Shown piece by piece: positions 1,063 to 10,909 of a stretch of DNA of 37,425 nt. How positions within the stretch are numbered: position 1 is the stretch's first letter; the number at the start of each line of letters is the position of its first letter. The stretch lies in the IMG/VR virus record IMGVR_UViG_2565956616_000008; one strand, written 5' to 3'. Origin of the DNA: a virus. Its lineage: Duplodnaviria; Heunggongvirae; Uroviricota; Caudoviricetes. The position numbers and the translations under genes were made by a program. The notes beneath the pieces are model-generated. The model worked only from the letters and a program-made list of their open reading frames with translations. It ran no database searches and had not been told where the DNA came from.

Positions 1063-1404
1063 TCAGCCAACATTGCGGCCTGATCGGGGTGATTTTTGGG
1101 TAATACCGATTGAAACCTGATCGCCCTCCGACTGAATAGAGCCATCAAGAGAGAGAGCCGGGGCAACCTGCCCGGCAGCGGGAAATGTTTTGTCGTGAAG
1201 TATCCACATAGTGTATTTTTCGAATCGCTCGACTTGGATTACTTTTTCTACAACCTCAATTCGCGCAGGTTTATATCCAGACTCATAATTCCCTATAGTC
1301 CCTACAGAAACCCCCGTTACTTGCGAAAACTGAGATTGTGTAAGTTTTTCTGCATTTCTGATCGCCTTTAGTTTTTTGGCGTAATCTCTTGACATGTTCA
1401 CCAT
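1063..1404 (-). CDS. C: P2 C-type immunity repressor (HTH)
   Basis: 113 aa; YESG, KYTMW and GQVAPAL motifs resemble P2 repressor C as recalled; position next to int, divergent from early operon; AGAGGA upstream of the ATG at 1404. Confidence 0.8.
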   Translation of the reverse strand: MVNMSRDYAKKLKAIRNAEKLTQSQFSQVTGVSVGTIGNYESGYKPARIEVVEKVIQVERFEKYTMWILHDKTFPAAGQVAPALSLDGSIQSEGDQVSIGITQKSPRSGRNVG

Positions 1405-1428
1405 ACGATGAGTATCCTCTTTTCATTC

Positions 1429-1444
1429 TTCACCACATGGTGAA
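1429..1444. promoter_or_regulatory. Candidate operator: inverted repeat TTCACCA-CA-TGGTGAA, with a further TTCACCA half-site at 1397..1403
   Basis: 7-bp inverted arms around a 2-bp centre, in the divergent region between the repressor and the early operon; the extra half-site overlaps the repressor start codon. Confidence 0.4.
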
Positions 1445-1507
1445 GAAAACAAACCAAAACAAACCATCACAAAGCGCAACAAGCGCACCAACGCAAGAGG
1501 ATAACAA

Positions 1508-2029
1508 ATGCGGGACTTCATTGCCGATAAAGAGTTATCTGACCACCAACCACTTCAGGAAAGTGACACACTCAGCGGATCCATTGATGCCGCCAACGAC
1601 GACGAACACGAAGAAAACAAGAAAAAGCGTTCCTACAAAAAAGGAGCGACTTTACGGCTGGATGGTCCGATCGCCGGGCTTTGCTCTCTGGAAAAAGGCG
1701 CGGCATATATTGGGCTAACAAAATCTGCACTGCGCGTAGCCATTCATCGCGGTCAAATGCCGGGACACAAGACGCGCACAAACCCGGAAGATGAAAACTC
1801 AGACGGAGTATGGTGGTTTAACGCCAAAGAGTGGGACAAGTTGGCTGATGAGCTACCAGAGCACGAGCCCCCAGAATGGCACAACTGGAAAAGTTACTGG
1901 ACGTATGACCGCCAGAAAAGGAAGTTCTCTCCAGCTAATAAAGAAGACTGCCAGACCATTAACGGTAAGCGAGTTTATACAGGCAGAAGCTCAAAACTGA
2001 ACCAACTCAGAAACAACAGAGGCAACTAA
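1508..2029 (+). CDS. Cox/excisionase-like DNA-binding protein with N- and C-terminal extensions
   Basis: 173 aa; central segment AAYIGLTKSALRVAIHRGQMPG...VWWFNAKEW resembles the P2 Cox / AlpA-type HTH; first gene of the early operon; AAGAGG 7 nt before ATG. Confidence 0.6.
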   Translation: MRDFIADKELSDHQPLQESDTLSGSIDAANDDEHEENKKKRSYKKGATLRLDGPIAGLCSLEKGAAYIGLTKSALRVAIHRGQMPGHKTRTNPEDENSDGVWWFNAKEWDKLADELPEHEPPEWHNWKSYWTYDRQKRKFSPANKEDCQTINGKRVYTGRSSKLNQLRNNRGN

Positions 2030-5103: not shown

Positions 5104-5316
5104 ATGAACAAAAAGACCTGGTTTCGCGCATACATGTGGGCGCTGGTATGCGTCCTCGTTTCTCTCATTCTGTATGTGGGGCTACTTCCCAGAATGATTT
5201 CATCAGACAGCTCCTTCCTGGTATTGCTGGGCATTTTTGTCGCCTTGCTGTACCCGGCGGGCGTTGTTCGCTTTTTCAGTAACTACATCAAAGCAATTAT
5301 GGAAACCAAACAATGA
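5104..5316 (+). CDS. small inner-membrane protein (two predicted TM helices)
   Basis: 70 aa, two hydrophobic stretches; stop overlaps the start of the SPFH gene. Confidence 0.55.
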   Translation: MNKKTWFRAYMWALVCVLVSLILYVGLLPRMISSDSSFLVLLGIFVALLYPAGVVRFFSNYIKAIMETKQ

Positions 5317-6137
5317 AAAAACTATTACCACTCATCCCTCTCCTGATGACCACACTTCTGGTTGGCTGTGACCGCGTGGAGCCGGGCAATGTAGGCATCA
5401 AAGTCAACAAACTGGGCGACGATAAAGGCGTCGGTGAAGTAGTTGGCGTTGGCCGCTACTGGACAGGCTGGAATACAGAGGTTTACATCTTCCCGACTTT
5501 CAAACAAATGAAGACTTACGATGAGCCGTTCAACTTCCAGATGAGTGACGGCACAACCATCGGCTATCACATCGGCGTGGCCTACAAAGTTGATCCATCC
5601 AAAGTTACCACTGTGTTTCAGACCTACCGCAAAGGCGTGGATGACATTACCGACACTGACCTGCGCCAGAAGATCGCCGATGCACTCAACCGACTGGCCA
5701 GCAAAATGACCACCGATAAGTTTATCGACGGTGGCAAGTCTGAACTGCTGGATTCAGCACTTAAAGACATTCAGTCAGAAATGACACCTATCGGCATTCA
5801 GGTCATGAGCCTCTCTTATGTCGGTAAACCGGAATATCCGCCAACCGTTATCGACAGCATTAACGCCAAAGTCACGGCAAACCAGAAAACCCTGCAACGC
5901 GAACAGGAAGTCAAGCAACGCGAAGCAGAAGCCAACATGTTGCGCGCAGAAGCTGCCGGACAGGCTGATGCCATTCGCACAAAAGCCCAGGCTGAAGCCG
6001 ACGCCATTCGTTTACGCGGTGAAGCTCTGCGCCAGAATCCCGGCGTTATGGAGCTGGAAGCAATCAACAAATGGAACGGCACGCTGCCGCAATACATGAC
6101 CAGCAACACCGCTGTTCCGTTTGTTCCGGTGAAGTAA
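5313..6137 (+). CDS. SPFH/band-7 (HflK/C, stomatin-like) domain lipoprotein
   Basis: 274 aa; signal peptide with lipobox LLVGC; SPFH-like core followed by an Ala/Glu/Arg-rich coiled-coil tail, the usual SPFH architecture. Confidence 0.75.
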   Translation: MKKLLPLIPLLMTTLLVGCDRVEPGNVGIKVNKLGDDKGVGEVVGVGRYWTGWNTEVYIFPTFKQMKTYDEPFNFQMSDGTTIGYHIGVAYKVDPSKVTTVFQTYRKGVDDITDTDLRQKIADALNRLASKMTTDKFIDGGKSELLDSALKDIQSEMTPIGIQVMSLSYVGKPEYPPTVIDSINAKVTANQKTLQREQEVKQREAEANMLRAEAAGQADAIRTKAQAEADAIRLRGEALRQNPGVMELEAINKWNGTLPQYMTSNTAVPFVPVK

Positions 6138-6142
6138 TTAAA

Positions 6143-6190
6143 CCCGGCCAGTGAAAATCGCTGGCCGGAGCAGTATCAGGATTTTTTTTA
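6143..6190 (+). terminator. putative terminator after the SPFH gene
   Basis: Stem CCGGCCAG/CTGGCCGG followed after a spacer by a run of 8 T. Confidence 0.5.
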
Positions 6191-6306
6191 GTATGCCGTT
6201 CTCACAAAAAAACCGCTTGCCATGCCGCAATCAGTCAGGTTACATTTCCGCTGCACCTCATAAAACGGGTGCCGGGTTTCGCAGCCTGCTGACAACCAAA
6301 GCGCAC

Positions 6307-6327
6307 AACCGCGCCAGCGGTTTTTTT
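6307..6327 (+). terminator. rho-independent terminator-like hairpin
   Basis: AACCGC-gcca-GCGGTT stem-loop followed by a 7-T run. Confidence 0.55.
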
Positions 6328-6368
6328 GTGCGTACTGTATTGCCACGTCTTTTTCGCACACGAATTAT

Positions 6369-6444
6369 GGCGGGGCGTACGGGGCCGACTTCGGTCGGGC
6401 CGGGTTCTTTGGTTGCCGGTACTGCGAACCCCGTACGTCTCGCC
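6369..6444 (+). promoter_or_regulatory. Long-stem structured element in the leader of the gene at 6507
   Basis: 6369..6384 pairs with 6429..6444 as a 16-bp stem with two G-T (G-U in RNA) pairs; inside, GCCGAC-TTCG-GTCGG(G)C hairpin with a UUCG tetraloop; possible sigma70-like promoter TTGCCA-17-AATTAT at 6340..6368. Confidence 0.45.
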
Positions 6445-6506
6445 ACCCACAGTTTCGCAGCTCTGGATAGTGAGTTTTCAAAACTTACAACCAAAGAGGC
6501 CACACC

Positions 6507-6737
6507 ATGGCAAACCGCAAACAGCACCGCGCTATCGCGGAGCGTCGTCACATCCAGACTGAAATCAACCGCAGACTTTTCCGCGCATTCCGCGTCGCGC
6601 ATATCATGCACATCAATATGCTGCATGAACGCAGTCACGCACTATCGAACAGCTATTCCGCCTCTGTTTTCAGCTATCTGGCAGATGATCTGCGCGAGCT
6701 TCAAAAGCTCATCCAGCAGCAAAACAAACTCCATTAA
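6507..6737 (+). CDS. small arginine-rich protein
   Basis: 76 aa; AAAGAGG 7 nt upstream; N-terminus ANRKQHRAIAERRHIQTEINRR is arginine-rich. Confidence 0.55.
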   Translation: MANRKQHRAIAERRHIQTEINRRLFRAFRVAHIMHINMLHERSHALSNSYSASVFSYLADDLRELQKLIQQQNKLH

Positions 6738-6809
6738 TTCCTGTTCCGGGCCTTTCCTGCACCTTGCGGCGGGAGGCCTTCGCACATCTGTAACAAGAGG
6801 ATTGCCGCA

Positions 6810-7175
6810 ATGATTCTCGCCAACGACTTTCTTGAATATCTGCTCAACACAGAACGTGATCTTGCCGCTCGCGTGCGTGATCGTTATGACATGTACCTGA
6901 AATCCCTGCCTGTACCGCAGCTCGCTGACGGAAAGATTGTTATTGATGGTCGCTACATGATTGACAGCCACGAGGGAAATTACAGGCTTTACCGCATTGA
7001 AGGTGGCACCCCGTCCGTTATTGGCATTTACCAGCGCCCATCCTCTGCAATCGTCGATGTGATTGCCGACAGCATCCGCATCACACATCGCCATGCCGAC
7101 ACAGAAGACACCGTGCTGGAAATTCAGCGGCTGGCTGCCGTTTGCCGTGACACCCTCAACGGTATGACGAAGTAA
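6810..7175 (+). CDS. hypothetical protein upstream of replication gene A
   Basis: 121-aa ORF; AAGAGGA upstream. Confidence 0.6.
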   Translation: MILANDFLEYLLNTERDLAARVRDRYDMYLKSLPVPQLADGKIVIDGRYMIDSHEGNYRLYRIEGGTPSVIGIYQRPSSAIVDVIADSIRITHRHADTEDTVLEIQRLAAVCRDTLNGMTK

Positions 7176-7181
7176 ATCAGT

Positions 7182-10004
7182 ATGACGACAGAGTACATCA
7201 GGGACTGGCAACAACCGCGCCACGCAGTAGGGCGTGAAGGAACGGGGATCCCCGCTCCTGAATCCGTGCTTTCCTCCTGGCTGGATGCCTACCGGGCAGA
7301 GAACGAGCGCCGCCAGAAAATGGCTGATGCGGCGTTCTCCGCCACGCCGCTGGGCAACCTGATTAATAAAAGCCTGGACGCACAGGAAAAACAGGACAAA
7401 ACCATCGCACTGGCAGGAGACGCCAGAAAACAGGCACGCGGCGCGGTGGATGAAGCCATGGCCTCGCTGCGCCTGCTGCCGTCCTATCTGCGCGATCCGC
7501 TTATTCGCCACCTCTCCTTCCTGCGCAAAAAACAGGAAGCCGATCGCCGGAAAGGCAAAAAGAGCTGGCAGGCGGAACGCTATGCACGCGGAACCCTGCG
7601 CAAAATATTCGAACGTCTGGAGCGCACCGATCACCGCTGGCTGACACAGGGTTATCGCTCCCTTGCCGGACGCGAACGCCTGGACGATTTGCTTTACCTG
7701 CCGCAGCTCAACAAACACCAGATACAGACGCTGGCCACCATGACGGCGGCGATGTTCAGCAGCACCTTCGAAAAACTCTGCGATGGCTTTGGCGCGACCG
7801 ATGGCGAACTGACCATGGATGTAACGCTGAAGGCGTATCAGATGCTGGCCCGCATGGCGTTACACCTGCACATCATGCCTCCACATTATGACGCACTGAC
7901 AACAGATAAAGACCGGAGGAACGAACCGGACACGGAGCTGCTGCCGGGCGCAATCCTTCGCCTGACCTGTGCGGAATGGTGGAAACGCAAACTGTGGCTG
8001 TTACGTTGCGAGTGGAGAGAAGAACAACTCCGCGCCGCCTGTCTGGTTTCCAGAAAAACATCACCCTATCTGAGCCAGGACGCGTTAAGCGAGTTTCGCG
8101 CACAGAGCGAGAAAACACGCGATTTCCTGAAAAGTTTCATGCTGGAAAACGAAGACGGGTTCACGATTGATCTCGAGACAGTGTATTACGCGGGAGTAAG
8201 TAACCCGGTTCACCGTAAGGCAGAAATGATGGCCACCATGAAGGGGCTGGAACTTCTGGCCGAAGCCCGTGGCGACAAAGCGGTGTTTCTGACTGTCACC
8301 TGCCCGTCAAAATACCACGCCACAACAGAGAACGGTCATCCGAATCCCAAATGGAACGGGGCCACCATGCGCGACTCCAGCGATTACCTGGTTAACACGT
8401 TTTTTGCAGCGGTCCGCAAGAAACTGAACCGCGACGGCCTGCGCTGGTATGGCATCCGCACGGTGGAGCCTCACCATGACGGCACCGTGCACTGGCATAT
8501 GATGGTCTTTGCTCATCCGGAAGAAATCGACACCATTGTGTCCCACACCCGCGATATTGCCATTCAGGAAGATCGTCACGAGCTGGGTGATGATATTACC
8601 CCACGCTTTAAGGCGGAGTTCGTCGACGGCTCAAAAGGCACGCCAACCAGCTACATCGCCACCTACATCGGAAAGAACCTGGACAGCCGCGCCGTGGATG
8701 GCATCGACCCGAAAACGGGCAAGCCACGCGTTGACCACGAAACAGATAAATCAATGGCCGAGAGCGTGGAGCGCGCCATCGGCTGGGCGCGCCTTCACCG
8801 GGTCCGCCAGTTCCAGTTCTTTGGCATCCCCTCCCGTCAGGTGTGGCGTGAACTCCGCCGCCTTGCCAGCCAGATGGCACGCAACCCGGAAGGCCCGCAA
8901 CGGCTGAAGGATGACGCAATGGATGCGGTTCTTGCTGCCGCTGATGCCGGGTGTTTTGCCACCTACATTGAAAAACAGGGTGGCGTACTTGTTCCGCGCA
9001 AGGACTACCTGATTCGCACAGCCTACGACCTCGCAGATGAGCTTAACGATTACGGCGAACAGAGTGTACAGATTTACGGGATCTGGTCGCCATTCATCGG
9101 GGAATCCTCCCGTGTGTGCACGCATCCGGATAACTGGAAGCTGGTAAGACGTAAACCGGAAGCGGAGGACAGCACCCGCGAAAATGGTTTTGACCTTCAG
9201 GGCGGCCCTGCCGCCCCTTGGACTCGTGGCAATAACTGTCCCCGTGTACAGGAAACGGACAACAACGGGACAGAACAGCCGGAAGAACGGCCAGCACCGT
9301 GGCCGCAGCTCCCTGACGGCGTTGAAGTGAACGAATGGATGCGCTCACTGAAACGGCACGAACGCCGGGCGCTGATGCGTTCGCTTCGTGACAAACAGGC
9401 AAAAAACAGCAGTGATGAAATGCAGAGCTGGACACAGAGCCGCAAACAGCAGCGGCCTTTGCCTGATAACCACGAATTACTCGCTAAAGAATGGCGGGAG
9501 TCTGCTGAATCTCTCGGCCTGCATATTGGTGAACAGCAGATGCAGCACCTGTTACGGGGCGGCAGTCTGTACGTTGACGGCAGCATCATTGCACCGCAGG
9601 GATTTGAAATTGTACGCAAACCGGATACCCGTCCGGACAGCCGGATCACGCAGCTCTGGCAGCGCCTGAGCCGTAACCACGGCGTAAGCAGCACGGAGAT
9701 CCGCCATAACCCGGTCGCCAGCTATCTGGAACAGCTGGGGGCATCAGACCCCGAAGCCGCCGCACGCCTGGCATCCACACTTCAGCAGGACCAGAACACC
9801 ATGAAAACACCCGTTACCGTGCTTTCTGACATGCTGCGCGCCATCCGCGACGCAGAGCACGCACAGAGAATCAGTGAAACCACTGAACGCGCCCGCCGCA
9901 AAGCAGACCTGCTGCGGGGTGGCCTGACCAGTGGAAACAAAAAACAGACAGAAACGGGATTCACAAATCCCGTAAATGAGCAAAAAACGCGCCGCGATAT
10001 ATGA
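7182..10004 (+). CDS. A: Replication initiator (P2 gpA family rolling-circle endonuclease) with a C-terminal extension
   Basis: 940 aa; position after the early genes and overall similarity to the P2 A family as recalled (region around YIATYIGKNLD); longer than P2 A, which I recall as about 760 aa. Confidence 0.85.
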   Translation: MTTEYIRDWQQPRHAVGREGTGIPAPESVLSSWLDAYRAENERRQKMADAAFSATPLGNLINKSLDAQEKQDKTIALAGDARKQARGAVDEAMASLRLLPSYLRDPLIRHLSFLRKKQEADRRKGKKSWQAERYARGTLRKIFERLERTDHRWLTQGYRSLAGRERLDDLLYLPQLNKHQIQTLATMTAAMFSSTFEKLCDGFGATDGELTMDVTLKAYQMLARMALHLHIMPPHYDALTTDKDRRNEPDTELLPGAILRLTCAEWWKRKLWLLRCEWREEQLRAACLVSRKTSPYLSQDALSEFRAQSEKTRDFLKSFMLENEDGFTIDLETVYYAGVSNPVHRKAEMMATMKGLELLAEARGDKAVFLTVTCPSKYHATTENGHPNPKWNGATMRDSSDYLVNTFFAAVRKKLNRDGLRWYGIRTVEPHHDGTVHWHMMVFAHPEEIDTIVSHTRDIAIQEDRHELGDDITPRFKAEFVDGSKGTPTSYIATYIGKNLDSRAVDGIDPKTGKPRVDHETDKSMAESVERAIGWARLHRVRQFQFFGIPSRQVWRELRRLASQMARNPEGPQRLKDDAMDAVLAAADAGCFATYIEKQGGVLVPRKDYLIRTAYDLADELNDYGEQSVQIYGIWSPFIGESSRVCTHPDNWKLVRRKPEAEDSTRENGFDLQGGPAAPWTRGNNCPRVQETDNNGTEQPEERPAPWPQLPDGVEVNEWMRSLKRHERRALMRSLRDKQAKNSSDEMQSWTQSRKQQRPLPDNHELLAKEWRESAESLGLHIGEQQMQHLLRGGSLYVDGSIIAPQGFEIVRKPDTRPDSRITQLWQRLSRNHGVSSTEIRHNPVASYLEQLGASDPEAAARLASTLQQDQNTMKTPVTVLSDMLRAIRDAEHAQRISETTERARRKADLLRGGLTSGNKKQTETGFTNPVNEQKTRRDI

Positions 10005-10080: not shown

Positions 10081-10909
10081 ATGAAAATTTGTATCGATGA
10101 CGGCTCCACCAACATCAAGCTGGCATGGACTGAGAACGGCCCAGACGACCGACACGCAATACCAGTACAGCGATGTGAATGTCATTGCCATTCATCACGC
10201 GCTGGTCAAATCAGGCATCACGCCACAGGAGGTGGATGTGGTTGTCACCCTGCCACTGAGCGAGTATTTCGACACAAACGCACAGCCGGACATGACCAAC
10301 ATCAACCGCAAAAAAGCGAACGTTATGCGCCCGGTGGAGTACCAGAACGGCGAAGCATTCACTATCCGTAACGTACGGGTTATGCCTGAATCCATTCCGG
10401 CTGGCTTTAAGGCACTGGCTGACATGAGTCCGTTTGAATCCCTGCTGATTGTGGATTTGGGCGGAACCACGCTGGATGTGGCAAAGGTTCAGGGGCAACT
10501 GGCAGGTATCAGCTAGGTGTTTTGCGATCCACACGTAGGCGTTTCTCTGATGGCCGATGCCGTACTGTCGGTGATGGCCACTAACGGTATGCGCACCAGT
10601 CACCACATCGCCAATACCATTATCGAACATCGCCATGATGAAGCCTGGCTGCGCCAGCACATCCACAATGACGCGCATTACGCCAGCCTGATGGCGGTTA
10701 TTCGTGAAAAGGAAGAAACACTGAAACAACGCGTGATCCGCGCGCTGGCGGGTTTTTCGGGTTACGGGCGGGTGATGGTTGTCGGTGGAGGGGCGGAGAT
10801 TGTGGCACCCGCTATCCGCGAAGCCTGCGGAGTTAATGCGACTTTCATCGCGGACGGGGTGCCACAGTTTGCTCTGGTTAATGGGCTGTACGCAATGGAC
10901 AAGGAGTAA
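10081..10909 (+). pseudogene. ParM/StbA-like actin-type partition ATPase, disrupted by a frameshift and an in-frame TAG
   Basis: N-terminus MKICIDDGSTNIKL in frame 1 (10081..); body with LIVDLGGTTLDV in frame 2 (10097..10516); in-frame TAG at 10514..10516; C-terminus with VMVVGGGAEI continues in the same frame to 10909. Confidence 0.7.

What the first reader, a model, noticed from the sequence alone, without database searches (positions are those of the whole stretch)
6330..6506. Long-stem structured element with G-U-compensated pairing in the early operon
6369..6384 and 6429..6444 form a 16-bp stem in which the only two non-Watson-Crick positions are G opposite T, which are G-U pairs in RNA; this favours selection for RNA structure over a DNA palindrome. 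The stem encloses a GCCGAC-UUCG-GUCGG hairpin with a canonical UUCG tetraloop and further CCGG and GGTTC/GAACC pairings. It lies just upstream of the RBS of the gene at 6507, after two terminator-like hairpins and a possible TTGCCA-17-AATTAT promoter. It could be an RNase III processing site, a riboregulator or antitermination target, or a DNA-level element such as an origin or protein-binding site.
Basis: seen in the sequence. Interest (0 to 1): 0.6.

Follow-up and report, generated by a model that had tools for sequence, protein, structure and literature searches.

The report
Phage C4 antisense immunity RNA
The long stem is the scaffold of a C4/CI-type antisense RNA, a well-known phage regulator, which sits here in a P2-like E. 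coli prophage and is set up to mask the ribosome-binding site of the next gene; it is an ordinary, already catalogued element.

Summary
The stem, the G-U pairs and the UUCG hairpin are all present. They form the scaffold of a C4 antisense RNA (Rfam RF01695, 87 bits, threshold 45, full-length match at 6363-6450). An isrK RNA (RF01394, 6253-6327) lies directly upstream. The window is a P88-like (Xuanwuvirus) P2-type prophage.

C4 displays two single-stranded boxes: b' in the loop of hairpin 2, and a' in the junction after it. Each has exact complements inside isrK (a1, b1) and in the leader downstream (a2, b2). Box b2 covers the Shine-Dalgarno sequence of the 76-aa epsilon-like "derepression" gene at 6507. 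The site layout matches that annotated for phage P1, and the gene order resembles phage P4 (CI RNA, epsilon, replicase).

Across 11 divergent modules and 84 P88-like loci the boxes and their targets change together, with 16 specificity types. The scaffold stays conserved and carries compensatory changes.

Most likely mechanism, by analogy with P1 and P4: C4 is processed from read-through of the isrK transcript, blocks translation of the epsilon-like gene, and probably lowers expression of the replicase gene A. isrK would act as a decoy.

The RNase III, DNA-origin and promoter readings are not supported. Novelty: already known. Interest: low.

The parts
6217..6246 (+). Promoter-like site TTGCCA-18-TACATT. 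It is the probable isrK promoter, with transcription starting near 6253.
   Evidence: Conserved in 82 of 83 P88-like loci.
6253..6327 (+). isrK RNA, the equivalent of the P4 seqA leader RNA. It has two hairpins, a single-stranded linker and an intrinsic terminator (6307-6322 plus a U run).
   Evidence: Rfam RF01394, 65.9 bits against a threshold of 50, full model. Terminator scan.
6277..6285 (+). Box a1 (UUUCGCAGC) in the loop of isrK hairpin 2. The 7 nt at 6278-6284 are an exact complement of a'.
6292..6301 (+). Box b1 (ACAACCAAAG) in the isrK linker. The 9 nt at 6293-6301 are an exact complement of the b' loop.
6363..6368 (+). Invariant AAUUAU leader immediately 5' of C4 (Rfam model positions 1-6). 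By homology with the P1 annotation, the mature 5' end is created just after it.
6369..6447 (+). Predicted mature C4 antisense RNA, about 79 nt. The Rfam match spans 6363-6450.
   Evidence: RF01695, 87.1 bits against a threshold of 45. The ends are inferred from the annotated P1 C4 RNA. Fold z = -5.1.
6368..6384 (+). 5' strand of the closing stem, which pairs with 6429-6445.
   Evidence: Nine of its 17 pairs show double changes among homologues.
6385..6398 (+). Hairpin 1, CCGAC-UUCG-GUCGG. It is a structural element.
   Evidence: Four of its 5 pairs are compensatory.
6399..6420 (+). Hairpin 2, with stems GCCGG/CCGGU. Its 12-nt loop at 6404-6415 (GUUCUUUGGUUG) is recognition box b'.
   Evidence: The stems are invariant, while 83% of loop columns are polymorphic.
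6421..6428 (+). Single-stranded junction ACUGCGAA, which is recognition box a'. The 7-nt core is 6422-6428.
6429..6445 (+). 3' strand of the closing stem. It is followed by a tRNA-like single-stranded CC(C)A tail.
6453..6461 (+). Box a2 (UUUCGCAGC) in the leader. The 7 nt at 6454-6460 are an exact complement of a'.
6487..6501 (+). Box b2. The 10 nt at 6488-6497 (CAACCAAAGA) are an exact complement of the b' loop. By my reading of the sequence, two G-U pairs and two G-C pairs could extend the match to 6501. It covers the Shine-Dalgarno sequence AAGAGG (6494-6499).
   Evidence: (the longest complement to C4 anywhere in the 37-kb window).
6507..6737 (+). The direct target gene: a 76-aa epsilon-like 'derepression protein'.
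   Evidence: Pfam PF25738, E = 1.2e-5, 25.4 bits, just below the 27-bit cut-off. BLASTP against P4 epsilon: 27% identity over 66 aa, E = 1e-6. RefSeq name. Third-codon-position bias among polymorphic sites.
6810..10004 (+). Distal genes that are probably co-transcribed: orf121 (6810-7175) and the replication endonuclease gpA (7182-10004).
   Evidence: Pfam Phage_GPA, E = 1.9e-130. No promoter-like or terminator-like sites in 6700-7300.

Best explanation
The element is a C4/CI-type antisense RNA gene. Together with the isrK RNA just upstream, it forms an 'IsrK-C4' RNA immunity module inside the early/replication operon of a P88-like P2-type prophage.

Proposed mechanism:
1. Transcription starts at the isrK promoter near 6253. 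Some transcripts may also arrive from the early promoter upstream.
2. Most transcripts stop at the isrK terminator and yield the short isrK RNA.
3. Read-through transcripts carry C4. The 17-bp stem, the two hairpins and the single-stranded CCA-like tail make a tRNA-like substrate. By analogy with P1 C4 and P4 CI, RNase P cuts it to a stable RNA of about 79 nt (6369-6447).
4. C4 displays box b' (loop of hairpin 2) and box a' (the junction). These pair with a2 (6454-6460) and b2 (6488-6497 and beyond) in the leader of the same operon.
5. Box b2 covers the Shine-Dalgarno sequence of the epsilon-like gene, so its translation is blocked.
6. As in P1 (icd-ant) and P4, an untranslated leader should then expose the transcript to Rho-dependent termination. 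That would also lower expression of orf121 and of the replicase gpA.
7. isrK carries duplicate sites a1 and b1. It can therefore pair with C4 in cis or in trans and titrate it, which would relieve repression, as IsrK does in Gifsy-1.

What is shown here: family membership, the structure, the four complementary sites, and their co-variation with the boxes. What is inferred: processing, translational repression, polarity on gpA, and the decoy role of isrK.
For: Family and layout:
- Full-length Rfam matches to C4 (87.1 bits, threshold 45) and isrK (65.9 bits, threshold 50).
- The same two models hit the P4 CI RNA and the P4 seqA leader. The C4 model also hits P1 c4.
- The P1 record annotates a1, b1, C4, a2, b2 and icd in the same order and with similar spacing.

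Structure:
- 99.3% of cells pair and 14 of 27 pairs are compensatory, against 35-47% pairing when the partners are slid.

Targets:
- The 10-nt b2 match is the longest complement to C4 in the whole window.
- In 12 of 12 diverse modules, a' has a 7-nt exact complement both in its own isrK (in P1, its a1b1 leader) and in its own leader. b' has a 6-10-nt exact complement in its own leader that abuts or overlaps a GAGG or GGAG Shine-Dalgarno sequence.
- The cognate leader is the best duplex partner in 11 of 11 rows: -32.5 against -20.1 +/- 3.9 kcal/mol.
- The window and P88 differ at only about 30 of 321 positions. Most of these lie in the six boxes or the columns next to them, and one is a compensatory stem pair.
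- The 84 P88-like loci carry 16 box types. Exact complements are kept in 81 of them, and the 3 exceptions still pair with G-U pairs plus, in some b2 sites, a mismatch.
- The boxes are 50-83% polymorphic. The hairpin-2 stems and AAUUAU are 0% polymorphic.

Context:
- No promoter-like or terminator-like sites lie between the epsilon-like gene and gpA.

Literature:
- IsrK in trans activates translation downstream of the C4-like STnc1160 in Gifsy-1 (PMC4825925).
- The 'IsrK-C4 immunity system' has been named for P4, P1, P7, N15 and lambdoid prophages (PMC3632133).
Against: - There are no expression or processing data for this prophage.
- RNAcofold gives no net gain for C4 plus leader. That algorithm cannot model loop-to-strand (kissing-type) pairing with the scaffold kept intact, so the result is uninformative rather than negative.
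- The MFE of the whole read-through RNA pairs isrK a1/b1 with C4 a'/b' in cis and does not form the C4 stem. A purely cis-acting switch is therefore conceivable.
- Unlike in P1, P4 and the lambdoid phages, the first gene downstream is not icd-like. Polarity onto gpA is therefore an extrapolation.
- The epsilon-like assignment rests on weak similarity (27% identity; the Pfam score is below its cut-off).
Confidence: 0.85

Rival explanations
1. The element acts only in cis, as a leader switch, and no trans-acting RNA is released. In the read-through mRNA, the isrK a1/b1 sites pair with the C4 a'/b' segment (the 'structure A' of the Gifsy-1 study). Short isrK RNA in trans then remodels the leader to open the ribosome-binding site, and the C4 fold as such is incidental.
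For: The MFE of 6253-6520 forms exactly this long-range helix. The Gifsy-1 genetics were interpreted this way (PMC4825925).
Against: The C4 three-helix fold is itself maintained by 14 compensatory pairs. The a2 and b2 sites co-vary with a' and b' just as a1 and b1 do, which a model involving only isrK does not need. Homologous RNAs in P1 and P4 are stable, processed, trans-acting repressors (from my knowledge of the literature; P1 annotation). A processed STnc1160 species is seen in Salmonella.
Confidence: 0.08
2. The long stem is an RNase III processing site within the early operon mRNA.
For: A near-perfect 17-bp stem, stacked on a 5-bp hairpin, lies in an mRNA leader.
Against: The element is a full-length member of a family whose maturation is attributed to RNase P (references in PMC2190699). 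The conserved AAUUAU 5' flank and the CCA-like 3' tail fit a tRNA-like substrate. The stem is shorter than the roughly two helical turns typical of RNase III substrates (from my knowledge of the literature). Selection clearly acts on the single-stranded boxes.
Confidence: 0.03
3. The element works at the DNA level, as an origin, a cruciform or a protein-binding palindrome.
For: It is an inverted repeat located near the replication gene A.
Against: Folding is strand-asymmetric (z = -5.1 against -1.8). G-U pairs are kept at the same stem positions in most homologues (G-U in 7 and 8 of 11 sequences), and these would be G-T and A-C mismatches in DNA. The same RNA occurs in phages with unrelated replication systems, namely lambdoid O/P, P1 and P4 alpha.
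Confidence: 0.01
4. The region encodes a protein, the 'Ash family protein' or orf45-like peptide that annotation pipelines call here.
For: Pfam Phage_ASH hits the translation of 6151-6506 (27.7 bits against a cut-off of 26). RefSeq calls an 'ash family protein' pseudogene. That frame is free of stop codons in 9 of 12 modules. orf45 was reported as translated in Gifsy-1.
Against: Polymorphic sites show no codon-position bias in that frame ([31, 34, 37]), whereas the epsilon-like CDS does show it ([12, 10, 27]). By my reading of the sequence, there is no Shine-Dalgarno sequence before AUG 6367. The frame has 2-3 stops in F039, Kpn74 and P1. Substitutions follow RNA pairing.
Confidence: 0.03

Closest known systems
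C4 antisense RNA of phages P1 and P7 (immI region: a1 b1 - c4 - a2 b2 - icd - ant)
   Same: It matches the same Rfam family (P1 c4 scores 68.8 bits) and has the same three-helix scaffold. The two boxes a' and b' are each duplicated upstream and downstream in the same order and with similar spacing, and b2 sits at the Shine-Dalgarno sequence of the next gene. The gene it controls encodes a factor that counteracts a repressor.
   Different: In P1 the first controlled gene is icd, which is translationally coupled to ant. Here it is an epsilon-like gene, followed by the replicase. In P1 the upstream a1/b1 region matches RF03163 rather than isrK. The host phage here is a P2-type myovirus with C/Cox primary immunity.
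CI RNA immunity of satellite phage P4 (seqA - CI/seqB - seqC)
   Same: The C4 model hits P4 CI (74.9 bits) and the isrK model hits the seqA leader. The gene order is similar: RNA module, then epsilon, then further ORFs, then the replication gene. The 76-aa protein is a distant homologue of P4 epsilon.
   Different: P4 has an icd/eta-like ORF between CI and epsilon, and a primase-helicase (alpha) instead of gpA. P4 is a satellite whose only immunity factor is CI. This phage also has a C repressor and Cox, so the RNA is at most a second layer of control.
Gifsy-1 isrK - orf45/STnc1160 - anrP locus of Salmonella
   Same: It combines an isrK RNA that has its own promoter and a leaky terminator, a C4-like RNA processed from the read-through transcript, and a downstream antirepressor-like gene. 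IsrK acts as an activator in trans (PMC4825925).
   Different: The phage there is lambdoid, and the output is the antirepressor-like AnrP and then the antiterminator AntQ. The published model stresses cis structures and translation of orf45 rather than a trans-acting C4.
isrK-C4 modules of lambdoid and Stx phages (mEp460, cdtI, Stx2a_WGPS2, F039)
   Same: The modules share 69-72% DNA identity with the window. They show the same box logic and lie upstream of replication genes. F039 is already annotated with both RNAs.
   Different: Their downstream gene is an icd-like/antirepressor (Rha/Bro) ORF. Their box sequences also differ from the window's.

Membership tests
C4 antisense RNA (Rfam RF01695; P1/P7 c4, P4 CI) | Match to the family covariance model above the curated threshold, over its full length. 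| tested here: met
   87.1 bits against a threshold of 45, model positions 1-87 of 87, E = 4.8e-16.
C4 antisense RNA (Rfam RF01695; P1/P7 c4, P4 CI) | A long closing stem that encloses two hairpins and is supported by covariation. | tested here: met
   The MFE equals the Rfam structure. 99.3% of cells pair and 14 of 27 pairs carry double changes.
C4 antisense RNA (Rfam RF01695; P1/P7 c4, P4 CI) | Single-stranded boxes a' and b' complementary to a2 and b2 in the downstream leader, with b2 at the ribosome-binding site. | tested here: met
   The a' complement is 7 nt and the b' complement is 10 nt. Box b2 covers AAGAGG, which ends 7 nt before the ATG.
C4 antisense RNA (Rfam RF01695; P1/P7 c4, P4 CI) | A duplicate pair of target sites, a1 and b1, upstream of the RNA. 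| tested here: met
   a1 lies at 6278-6284 and b1 at 6293-6301, both inside isrK.
C4 antisense RNA (Rfam RF01695; P1/P7 c4, P4 CI) | Boxes and targets co-vary between heteroimmune relatives. | tested here: met
   Eleven diverse modules. Sixteen types in 84 P88-like loci, with 81 of 84 keeping exact complements.
C4 antisense RNA (Rfam RF01695; P1/P7 c4, P4 CI) | Matured from a longer transcript (by RNase P) to a stable RNA of about 77-79 nt. | not testable with these tools
   Only indirect support: the invariant AAUUAU flank, the CCA-like tail, and the fact that a start from the promoter-like site would truncate the stem.
C4 antisense RNA (Rfam RF01695; P1/P7 c4, P4 CI) | Represses translation of the downstream gene and, through polarity, transcription of distal genes. 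| not testable with these tools
   Inferred from the site geometry and from the absence of promoter-like or terminator-like signals before gpA.
isrK RNA (Rfam RF01394; P4 seqA leader) | Covariance-model match, its own promoter, and an intrinsic terminator upstream of C4. | tested here: met
   65.9 bits against a threshold of 50. TTGCCA-18-TACATT, and a terminator at 6307-6322 plus a T run.
isrK RNA (Rfam RF01394; P4 seqA leader) | Binds Hfq and activates downstream translation in trans. | not testable with these tools
   Known only for Gifsy-1 (PMC4825925).
P4-type satellite immunity system | The element is a satellite that lacks structural genes, with the RNA as its sole immunity factor. | tested here: not met
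   The window carries int, C, cox, gpA and, by homology to the complete phage P88, portal and terminase genes. It therefore works like P4 immunity but is not a P4-type element.
RNase III substrate | A double-stranded RNA helix of about two turns that is cleaved by RNase III. | not testable with these tools
   The stem is 17 bp. Nothing supports RNase III cleavage, and the family is attributed to RNase P.
Ash protein family (Pfam PF10554) | A translated protein-coding gene. | tested here: not met
   The HMM score passes (27.7 against 26), but there is no codon-position bias ([31, 34, 37]), whereas the neighbouring CDS shows it ([12, 10, 27]). The frame is interrupted in 3 of 12 modules.

The most novel reading that the evidence does not exclude
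In P88-like (Xuanwuvirus) P2-type prophages, the isrK-C4 module may be a second, hypervariable RNA immunity layer. The module matches about a quarter of complete E. coli genomes. It would gate both an epsilon-type antirepressor and the gpA replicase. Its many interchangeable a/b specificities (at least 16 seen here) may be driven by conflict with co-resident P2-like phages or with P4-like satellites that use the same RNA logic. For example, a satellite or rival phage carrying matching a1/b1 sites could sponge the helper's C4 and derepress it.
Probability: 0.2. Interest if true: 0.45.

Novelty: already known. Interest (0 to 1): 0.15.

Why it matters
The finding mainly matters for annotation. 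This conserved RNA pair is routinely mis-called as an 'Ash family protein' pseudogene, or is fused onto the 5' end of 'antirepressor/Rha' CDSs. In a phage lineage that matches about 26% of complete E. coli genomes, the replicase gene lies downstream of an RNA switch. The specificity boxes of that switch diversify far faster than anything around them. If the inferred mechanism holds, P2-type phages of this lineage have an RNA-based, P4/P1-like control over an antirepressor and over replication, in addition to the classical C/Cox switch. That would bear on superinfection immunity and on helper-satellite cross-talk. None of this changes the basic verdict: the element itself is a textbook C4/CI RNA.

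Tried and rejected
- tRNA/tmRNA scan: nothing found.
- RNAcofold of C4 with the leader or with isrK: no informative gain, because kissing-type pairing is outside the model.
- A shared C-repressor operator near the isrK promoter, like Oc4 in P1: only a 9-mer (CAAAGCGCA) is shared with the Pe leader, and I judge it a chance match. A prophage with the same C4 type has an unrelated C-cox region.
- A LexA box around 6333-6352: by eye, CTGT-N8 is not followed by ACAG.
- Similarity of orf121 to P4 orf151: none.
- My first automatic hairpin-finding script mis-assigned the boxes. I replaced it with anchored patterns.
- Literature on C4 in P88 or Xuanwuvirus: none found in the held library. The primary P1 and P4 papers (PMC176756, PMC41593) are not held, so mechanistic details for P1 and P4 rest on my knowledge of the literature and on the P1 GenBank annotation.
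- Genome-contig scan with the epsilon-like protein: only 3 loci, because the short query finds close relatives only.

Full report
OBSERVATION

Positions 6369-6384 pair with 6429-6444 over 16 bp, and the only non-Watson-Crick pairs are G6373-U6440 and G6375-U6438. The stem encloses CCGAC-UUCG-GUCGG (6385-6398) and a second hairpin, GCCGG-12 nt-CCGGU (6399-6420).

The 79-nt core folds at -49.3 kcal/mol with z = -5.1 on the + strand. The complement gives only -34.5 kcal/mol with z = -1.8. The whole 177-nt span gives z = -3.2 against -1.1.

IDENTITY

An Rfam scan of the window gives two matches above the curated thresholds:
- C4 antisense RNA (RF01695) at 6363-6450 on the + strand. It scores 87.1 bits against a threshold of 45, over the full model, with E = 4.8e-16.
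- isrK (RF01394) at 6253-6327 on the + strand. It scores 65.9 bits against a threshold of 50.

No tRNA or tmRNA is present.

CONTEXT

The region is 94% identical to phage P88 (Peduoviridae, Xuanwuvirus). It matches 1,399 of 5,426 complete E. coli genomes. The gene order is as follows:
- integrase, then a C-type HTH repressor, then Cox
- early genes
- an SPFH lipoprotein (5313-6137)
- isrK, then C4
- a 76-aa 'derepression protein' (6507-6737)
- orf121 (6810-7175)
- the replication endonuclease gpA (7182-10004)

The 76-aa protein is a distant homologue of P4 epsilon. BLASTP gives 27% identity over 66 aa with E = 1e-6. Pfam PF25738 scores 25.4 bits, just under its 27-bit cut-off.

The promoter-like sites on the + strand nearby are TTGCCA-18-TACATT (6217-6246), placed correctly for isrK, and TTGCCA-17-AATTAT (6340-6368). 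No promoter-like or terminator-like sites lie between the epsilon-like gene and gpA.

ANATOMY OF THE REGULATOR

C4 leaves two segments unpaired: the 12-nt loop of hairpin 2 (b', GUUCUUUGGUUG, 6404-6415) and the junction after it (a', ACUGCGAA, 6421-6428).

- The reverse complement of b' occurs at 6293-6301 (9 nt, inside isrK) and at 6488-6497 (10 nt). The second site is the longest complement to any part of C4 in the entire 37-kb window. By my reading of the sequence, two G-U pairs and two G-C pairs could extend it to 6501. It covers the AAGAGG Shine-Dalgarno sequence of the gene that starts at 6507.
- The reverse complement of a' (UUCGCAG) occurs at 6278-6284, in the loop of isrK hairpin 2, and at 6454-6460, just after C4.

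The GenBank record of phage P1 annotates the same arrangement: a1, b1, C4 RNA, a2, b2, then icd. There too, b2 lies next to the icd start, and the record notes 'repression of icd ant translation'.

COMPARATIVE TESTS

I collected modules from P88, six lambdoid or Stx phages, a Klebsiella phage, P4 and P1. Rfam finds C4 in all of them. It finds isrK upstream in all but P1, where the related a1b1 model RF03163 hits instead. The C4 model hits the P4 CI RNA, and the isrK model hits the P4 seqA leader.

1. Structure. On 11 distinct C4 sequences, 99.3% of cells in the Rfam structure are standard pairs, and 14 of 27 pairs carry changes on both sides. When the 3' partners are slid by 1-3 columns, only 35-47% of cells pair.
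2. Targets. In 12 of 12 modules, a' has an exact 7-nt complement both in its own isrK (in P1, its a1b1 leader) and in its own leader. b' has a 6-10-nt exact complement in its own leader that abuts or overlaps a GAGG or GGAG Shine-Dalgarno sequence. The box sequences themselves differ between modules.
3. Cognate preference. The cognate leader is the best duplex partner of each C4 in 11 of 11 cases, with a mean of -32.5 kcal/mol. Non-cognate pairs average -20.1 +/- 3.9 kcal/mol.
4. Window against P88. The two differ at only about 30 of 321 aligned positions. Most of the differences lie in a1, b1, b', a', a2 and b2 or the columns next to them, and one is a compensatory C-G to U-A change in the stem.
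5. P88-like loci. Using the epsilon-like protein as a probe, I retrieved 83 further P88-like loci.
   - Together with the window and P88, 84 of the 85 loci matched my C4 search pattern. The one miss (L094) also carries the module.
   - The 84 loci fall into 16 (b', a') types, and a and b boxes occur in different combinations.
   - Exact complements (b1 and b2 of at least 7 nt, a1 and a2 of at least 6 nt) are kept in 81 of 84 loci. In the 3 exceptions the b sites still pair, with G-U pairs plus, in some b2 sites, a mismatch.
6. Column variability over 54 unique P88-like sequences.
   - The boxes are the most polymorphic parts: b1 0.80, b' 0.83, b2 0.82, a' 0.62.
   - The hairpin-2 stems and the AAUUAU flank are invariant.
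   - The isrK terminator scores 0.07, and the epsilon-like CDS scores 0.21.

MECHANISM

The data fit the P1/P7 and P4 paradigm. The following description of that paradigm comes from my knowledge of the literature (Citron and Schuster 1990; Biere et al. 1992; Sabbattini et al. 1995; Forti et al. 1995 and 2002; Hartmann et al. 1995), and only part of it could be checked in the held library.

- The RNA is cut out of a longer transcript by RNase P.
- It pairs through its exposed boxes with the leader of its own operon and occludes the ribosome-binding site of the first gene.
- The untranslated transcript is then terminated by Rho, so distal genes are silenced.

Applied to this window, the first gene is the epsilon-like putative antirepressor, and the distal genes are orf121 and gpA.

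isrK carries the duplicate sites a1 and b1. In Gifsy-1, short IsrK supplied in trans activates translation downstream of the C4-like STnc1160 (PMC4825925). A decoy (anti-antisense) role for isrK is therefore the most economical reading. The MFE of the full read-through RNA does pair isrK a1/b1 with C4 a'/b' in cis.

Shown here: family membership, fold, sites and co-variation. Inferred: processing, translational repression, polarity on gpA, and the decoy role. By homology with the annotated P1 RNA, the mature RNA is predicted to span 6369-6447.

- RNase III. Nothing supports it, and the family is attributed to RNase P.
- DNA element. This is contradicted by the strand asymmetry, by the G-U pairs kept across most homologues, and by the presence of the RNA in phages with unrelated replication systems.
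- Promoter TTGCCA-17-AATTAT. AAUUAU is the invariant 5' flank of the C4 model (83 of 83 loci), whereas the -35 hexamer is TTGCCA in only 55 of 83. By my reading, the hexamer 17 nt upstream of AAUUAU in the lambdoid phages and P1 does not resemble a -35 element. A start about 7 nt downstream would also truncate the stem. The site is more likely a processing leader than a promoter.
- GGTTC/GAACC pairing. It is not part of the conserved structure.

PROTEIN-CODING RIVAL

The translation of 6151-6506 hits Pfam Phage_ASH, and RefSeq calls an 'ash family protein' pseudogene here. That frame is free of stop codons in 9 of 12 modules. However, polymorphic sites show no codon-position bias in it ([31, 34, 37]), while the adjacent epsilon-like CDS shows the expected third-position excess ([12, 10, 27]). 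The 'Ash' calls, and the long 5' extensions of lambdoid 'antirepressor/Rha' CDSs, are best read as translated RNA genes.

COMPARISON AND NOVELTY

This is the 'IsrK-C4 immunity system' already described for P4, P1, P7, N15 and lambdoid prophages (PMC3632133). It is already annotated as such in at least one phage record (F039).

Two points are specific to this lineage:
- The module sits in a P2-type phage that also has C/Cox immunity.
- Its direct target is an epsilon-like gene rather than an icd-like one, with gpA downstream.

I found no paper on this in the held library. It is a contextual nuance and not a new kind of element.

VERDICT

The element is already known, and interest is low (0.15).

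The most novel reading still open is a hypervariable second immunity layer that gates the antirepressor and the replicase, possibly shaped by helper-satellite conflict. I put its probability at about 0.2 and its interest, if true, at about 0.45.

Noticed in passing
window 6151-6813 (+); L004 1141-2292; L011 8168-8584 (-): A frame free of stop codons runs through isrK and C4. It is annotated as 'Ash family protein', as 'cI gene product', or as the 5' part of long 'antirepressor/Rha' CDSs. Pfam PF10554 hits it, but it shows no codon-position bias. Pfam PF10554 (Phage_ASH) and these CDS calls therefore appear to be built on translated RNA genes.
   Followed up: yes
L013-L095, 254 nt upstream of the epsilon-like gene; window 6277-6501: Eighty-four P88-like prophages carry at least 16 different (b', a') box combinations. 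Their epsilon-like proteins are all at least 88% identical. The matching a1/b1/a2/b2 sites change with the boxes, and the a and b boxes reassort independently.
   Followed up: yes
window 6437-6445 against 6465-6474; L011, L010, L003-L009 leaders: There is a third complementarity that co-varies in some lineages. The last 7-9 nt of the C4 3' strand match a box 15-18 nt into the leader (GGUGGUGAG in the lambdoid phages, GGCGAUAGC in P4, GGUGGUAGC in Kpn74). In the unprocessed precursor this pairing would place a2 in a hairpin loop and would compete with the C4 stem. It is weak in this window and in P1 (5 bp). Its function is unknown.
   Followed up: partly
L002 3290-3410 against window 1400-1515 and L001 1440-1590: E. 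coli fS58a has the same C4 box type as the window but an unrelated C-cox intergenic (operator) region. P88 differs from the window in both. The primary protein immunity and the RNA module therefore reassort as separate cassettes.
   Followed up: partly
window 10081-10909: The ParM/StbA-like partition gene downstream of gpA looks split in this window. A 139-aa ORF (10097-10516) carries the StbA_N domain and the start of ParM_N. The gene is 320 aa in fS58a and P88, so this copy may be frameshifted or a pseudogene.
   Followed up: no
L094 (NZ_JBQPOM010000071.1, 'Vagococcus sp. WN89Y'): A contig labelled as a Firmicute carries an E. coli-type P88-like isrK-C4-epsilon module at about 88% protein identity. 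This is probably assembly contamination or mislabelling.
   Followed up: no
window 1470-1478 and 6297-6305: The 9-mer CAAAGCGCA is shared by the leader of the early promoter Pe and the flank of b1 in isrK. I estimate about 0.2 such matches by chance, and it is not conserved in relatives. I judge it coincidental.
   Followed up: partly
window 5313-6137: An SPFH/Band-7 lipoprotein gene (Pfam E = 5.8e-31) lies immediately upstream of the RNA module. It looks like a cargo or moron gene at the end of the early gene block and is followed by a hairpin (about 6143-6168) with no adjacent T run.
   Followed up: no
window 6253-6520: The minimum-free-energy fold of the whole read-through RNA pairs isrK a1/b1 with C4 a'/b' in cis and does not form the C4 stem. 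This matches 'structure A' of the Gifsy-1 study. Folding kinetics and processing therefore probably decide between cis and trans modes.
   Followed up: partly
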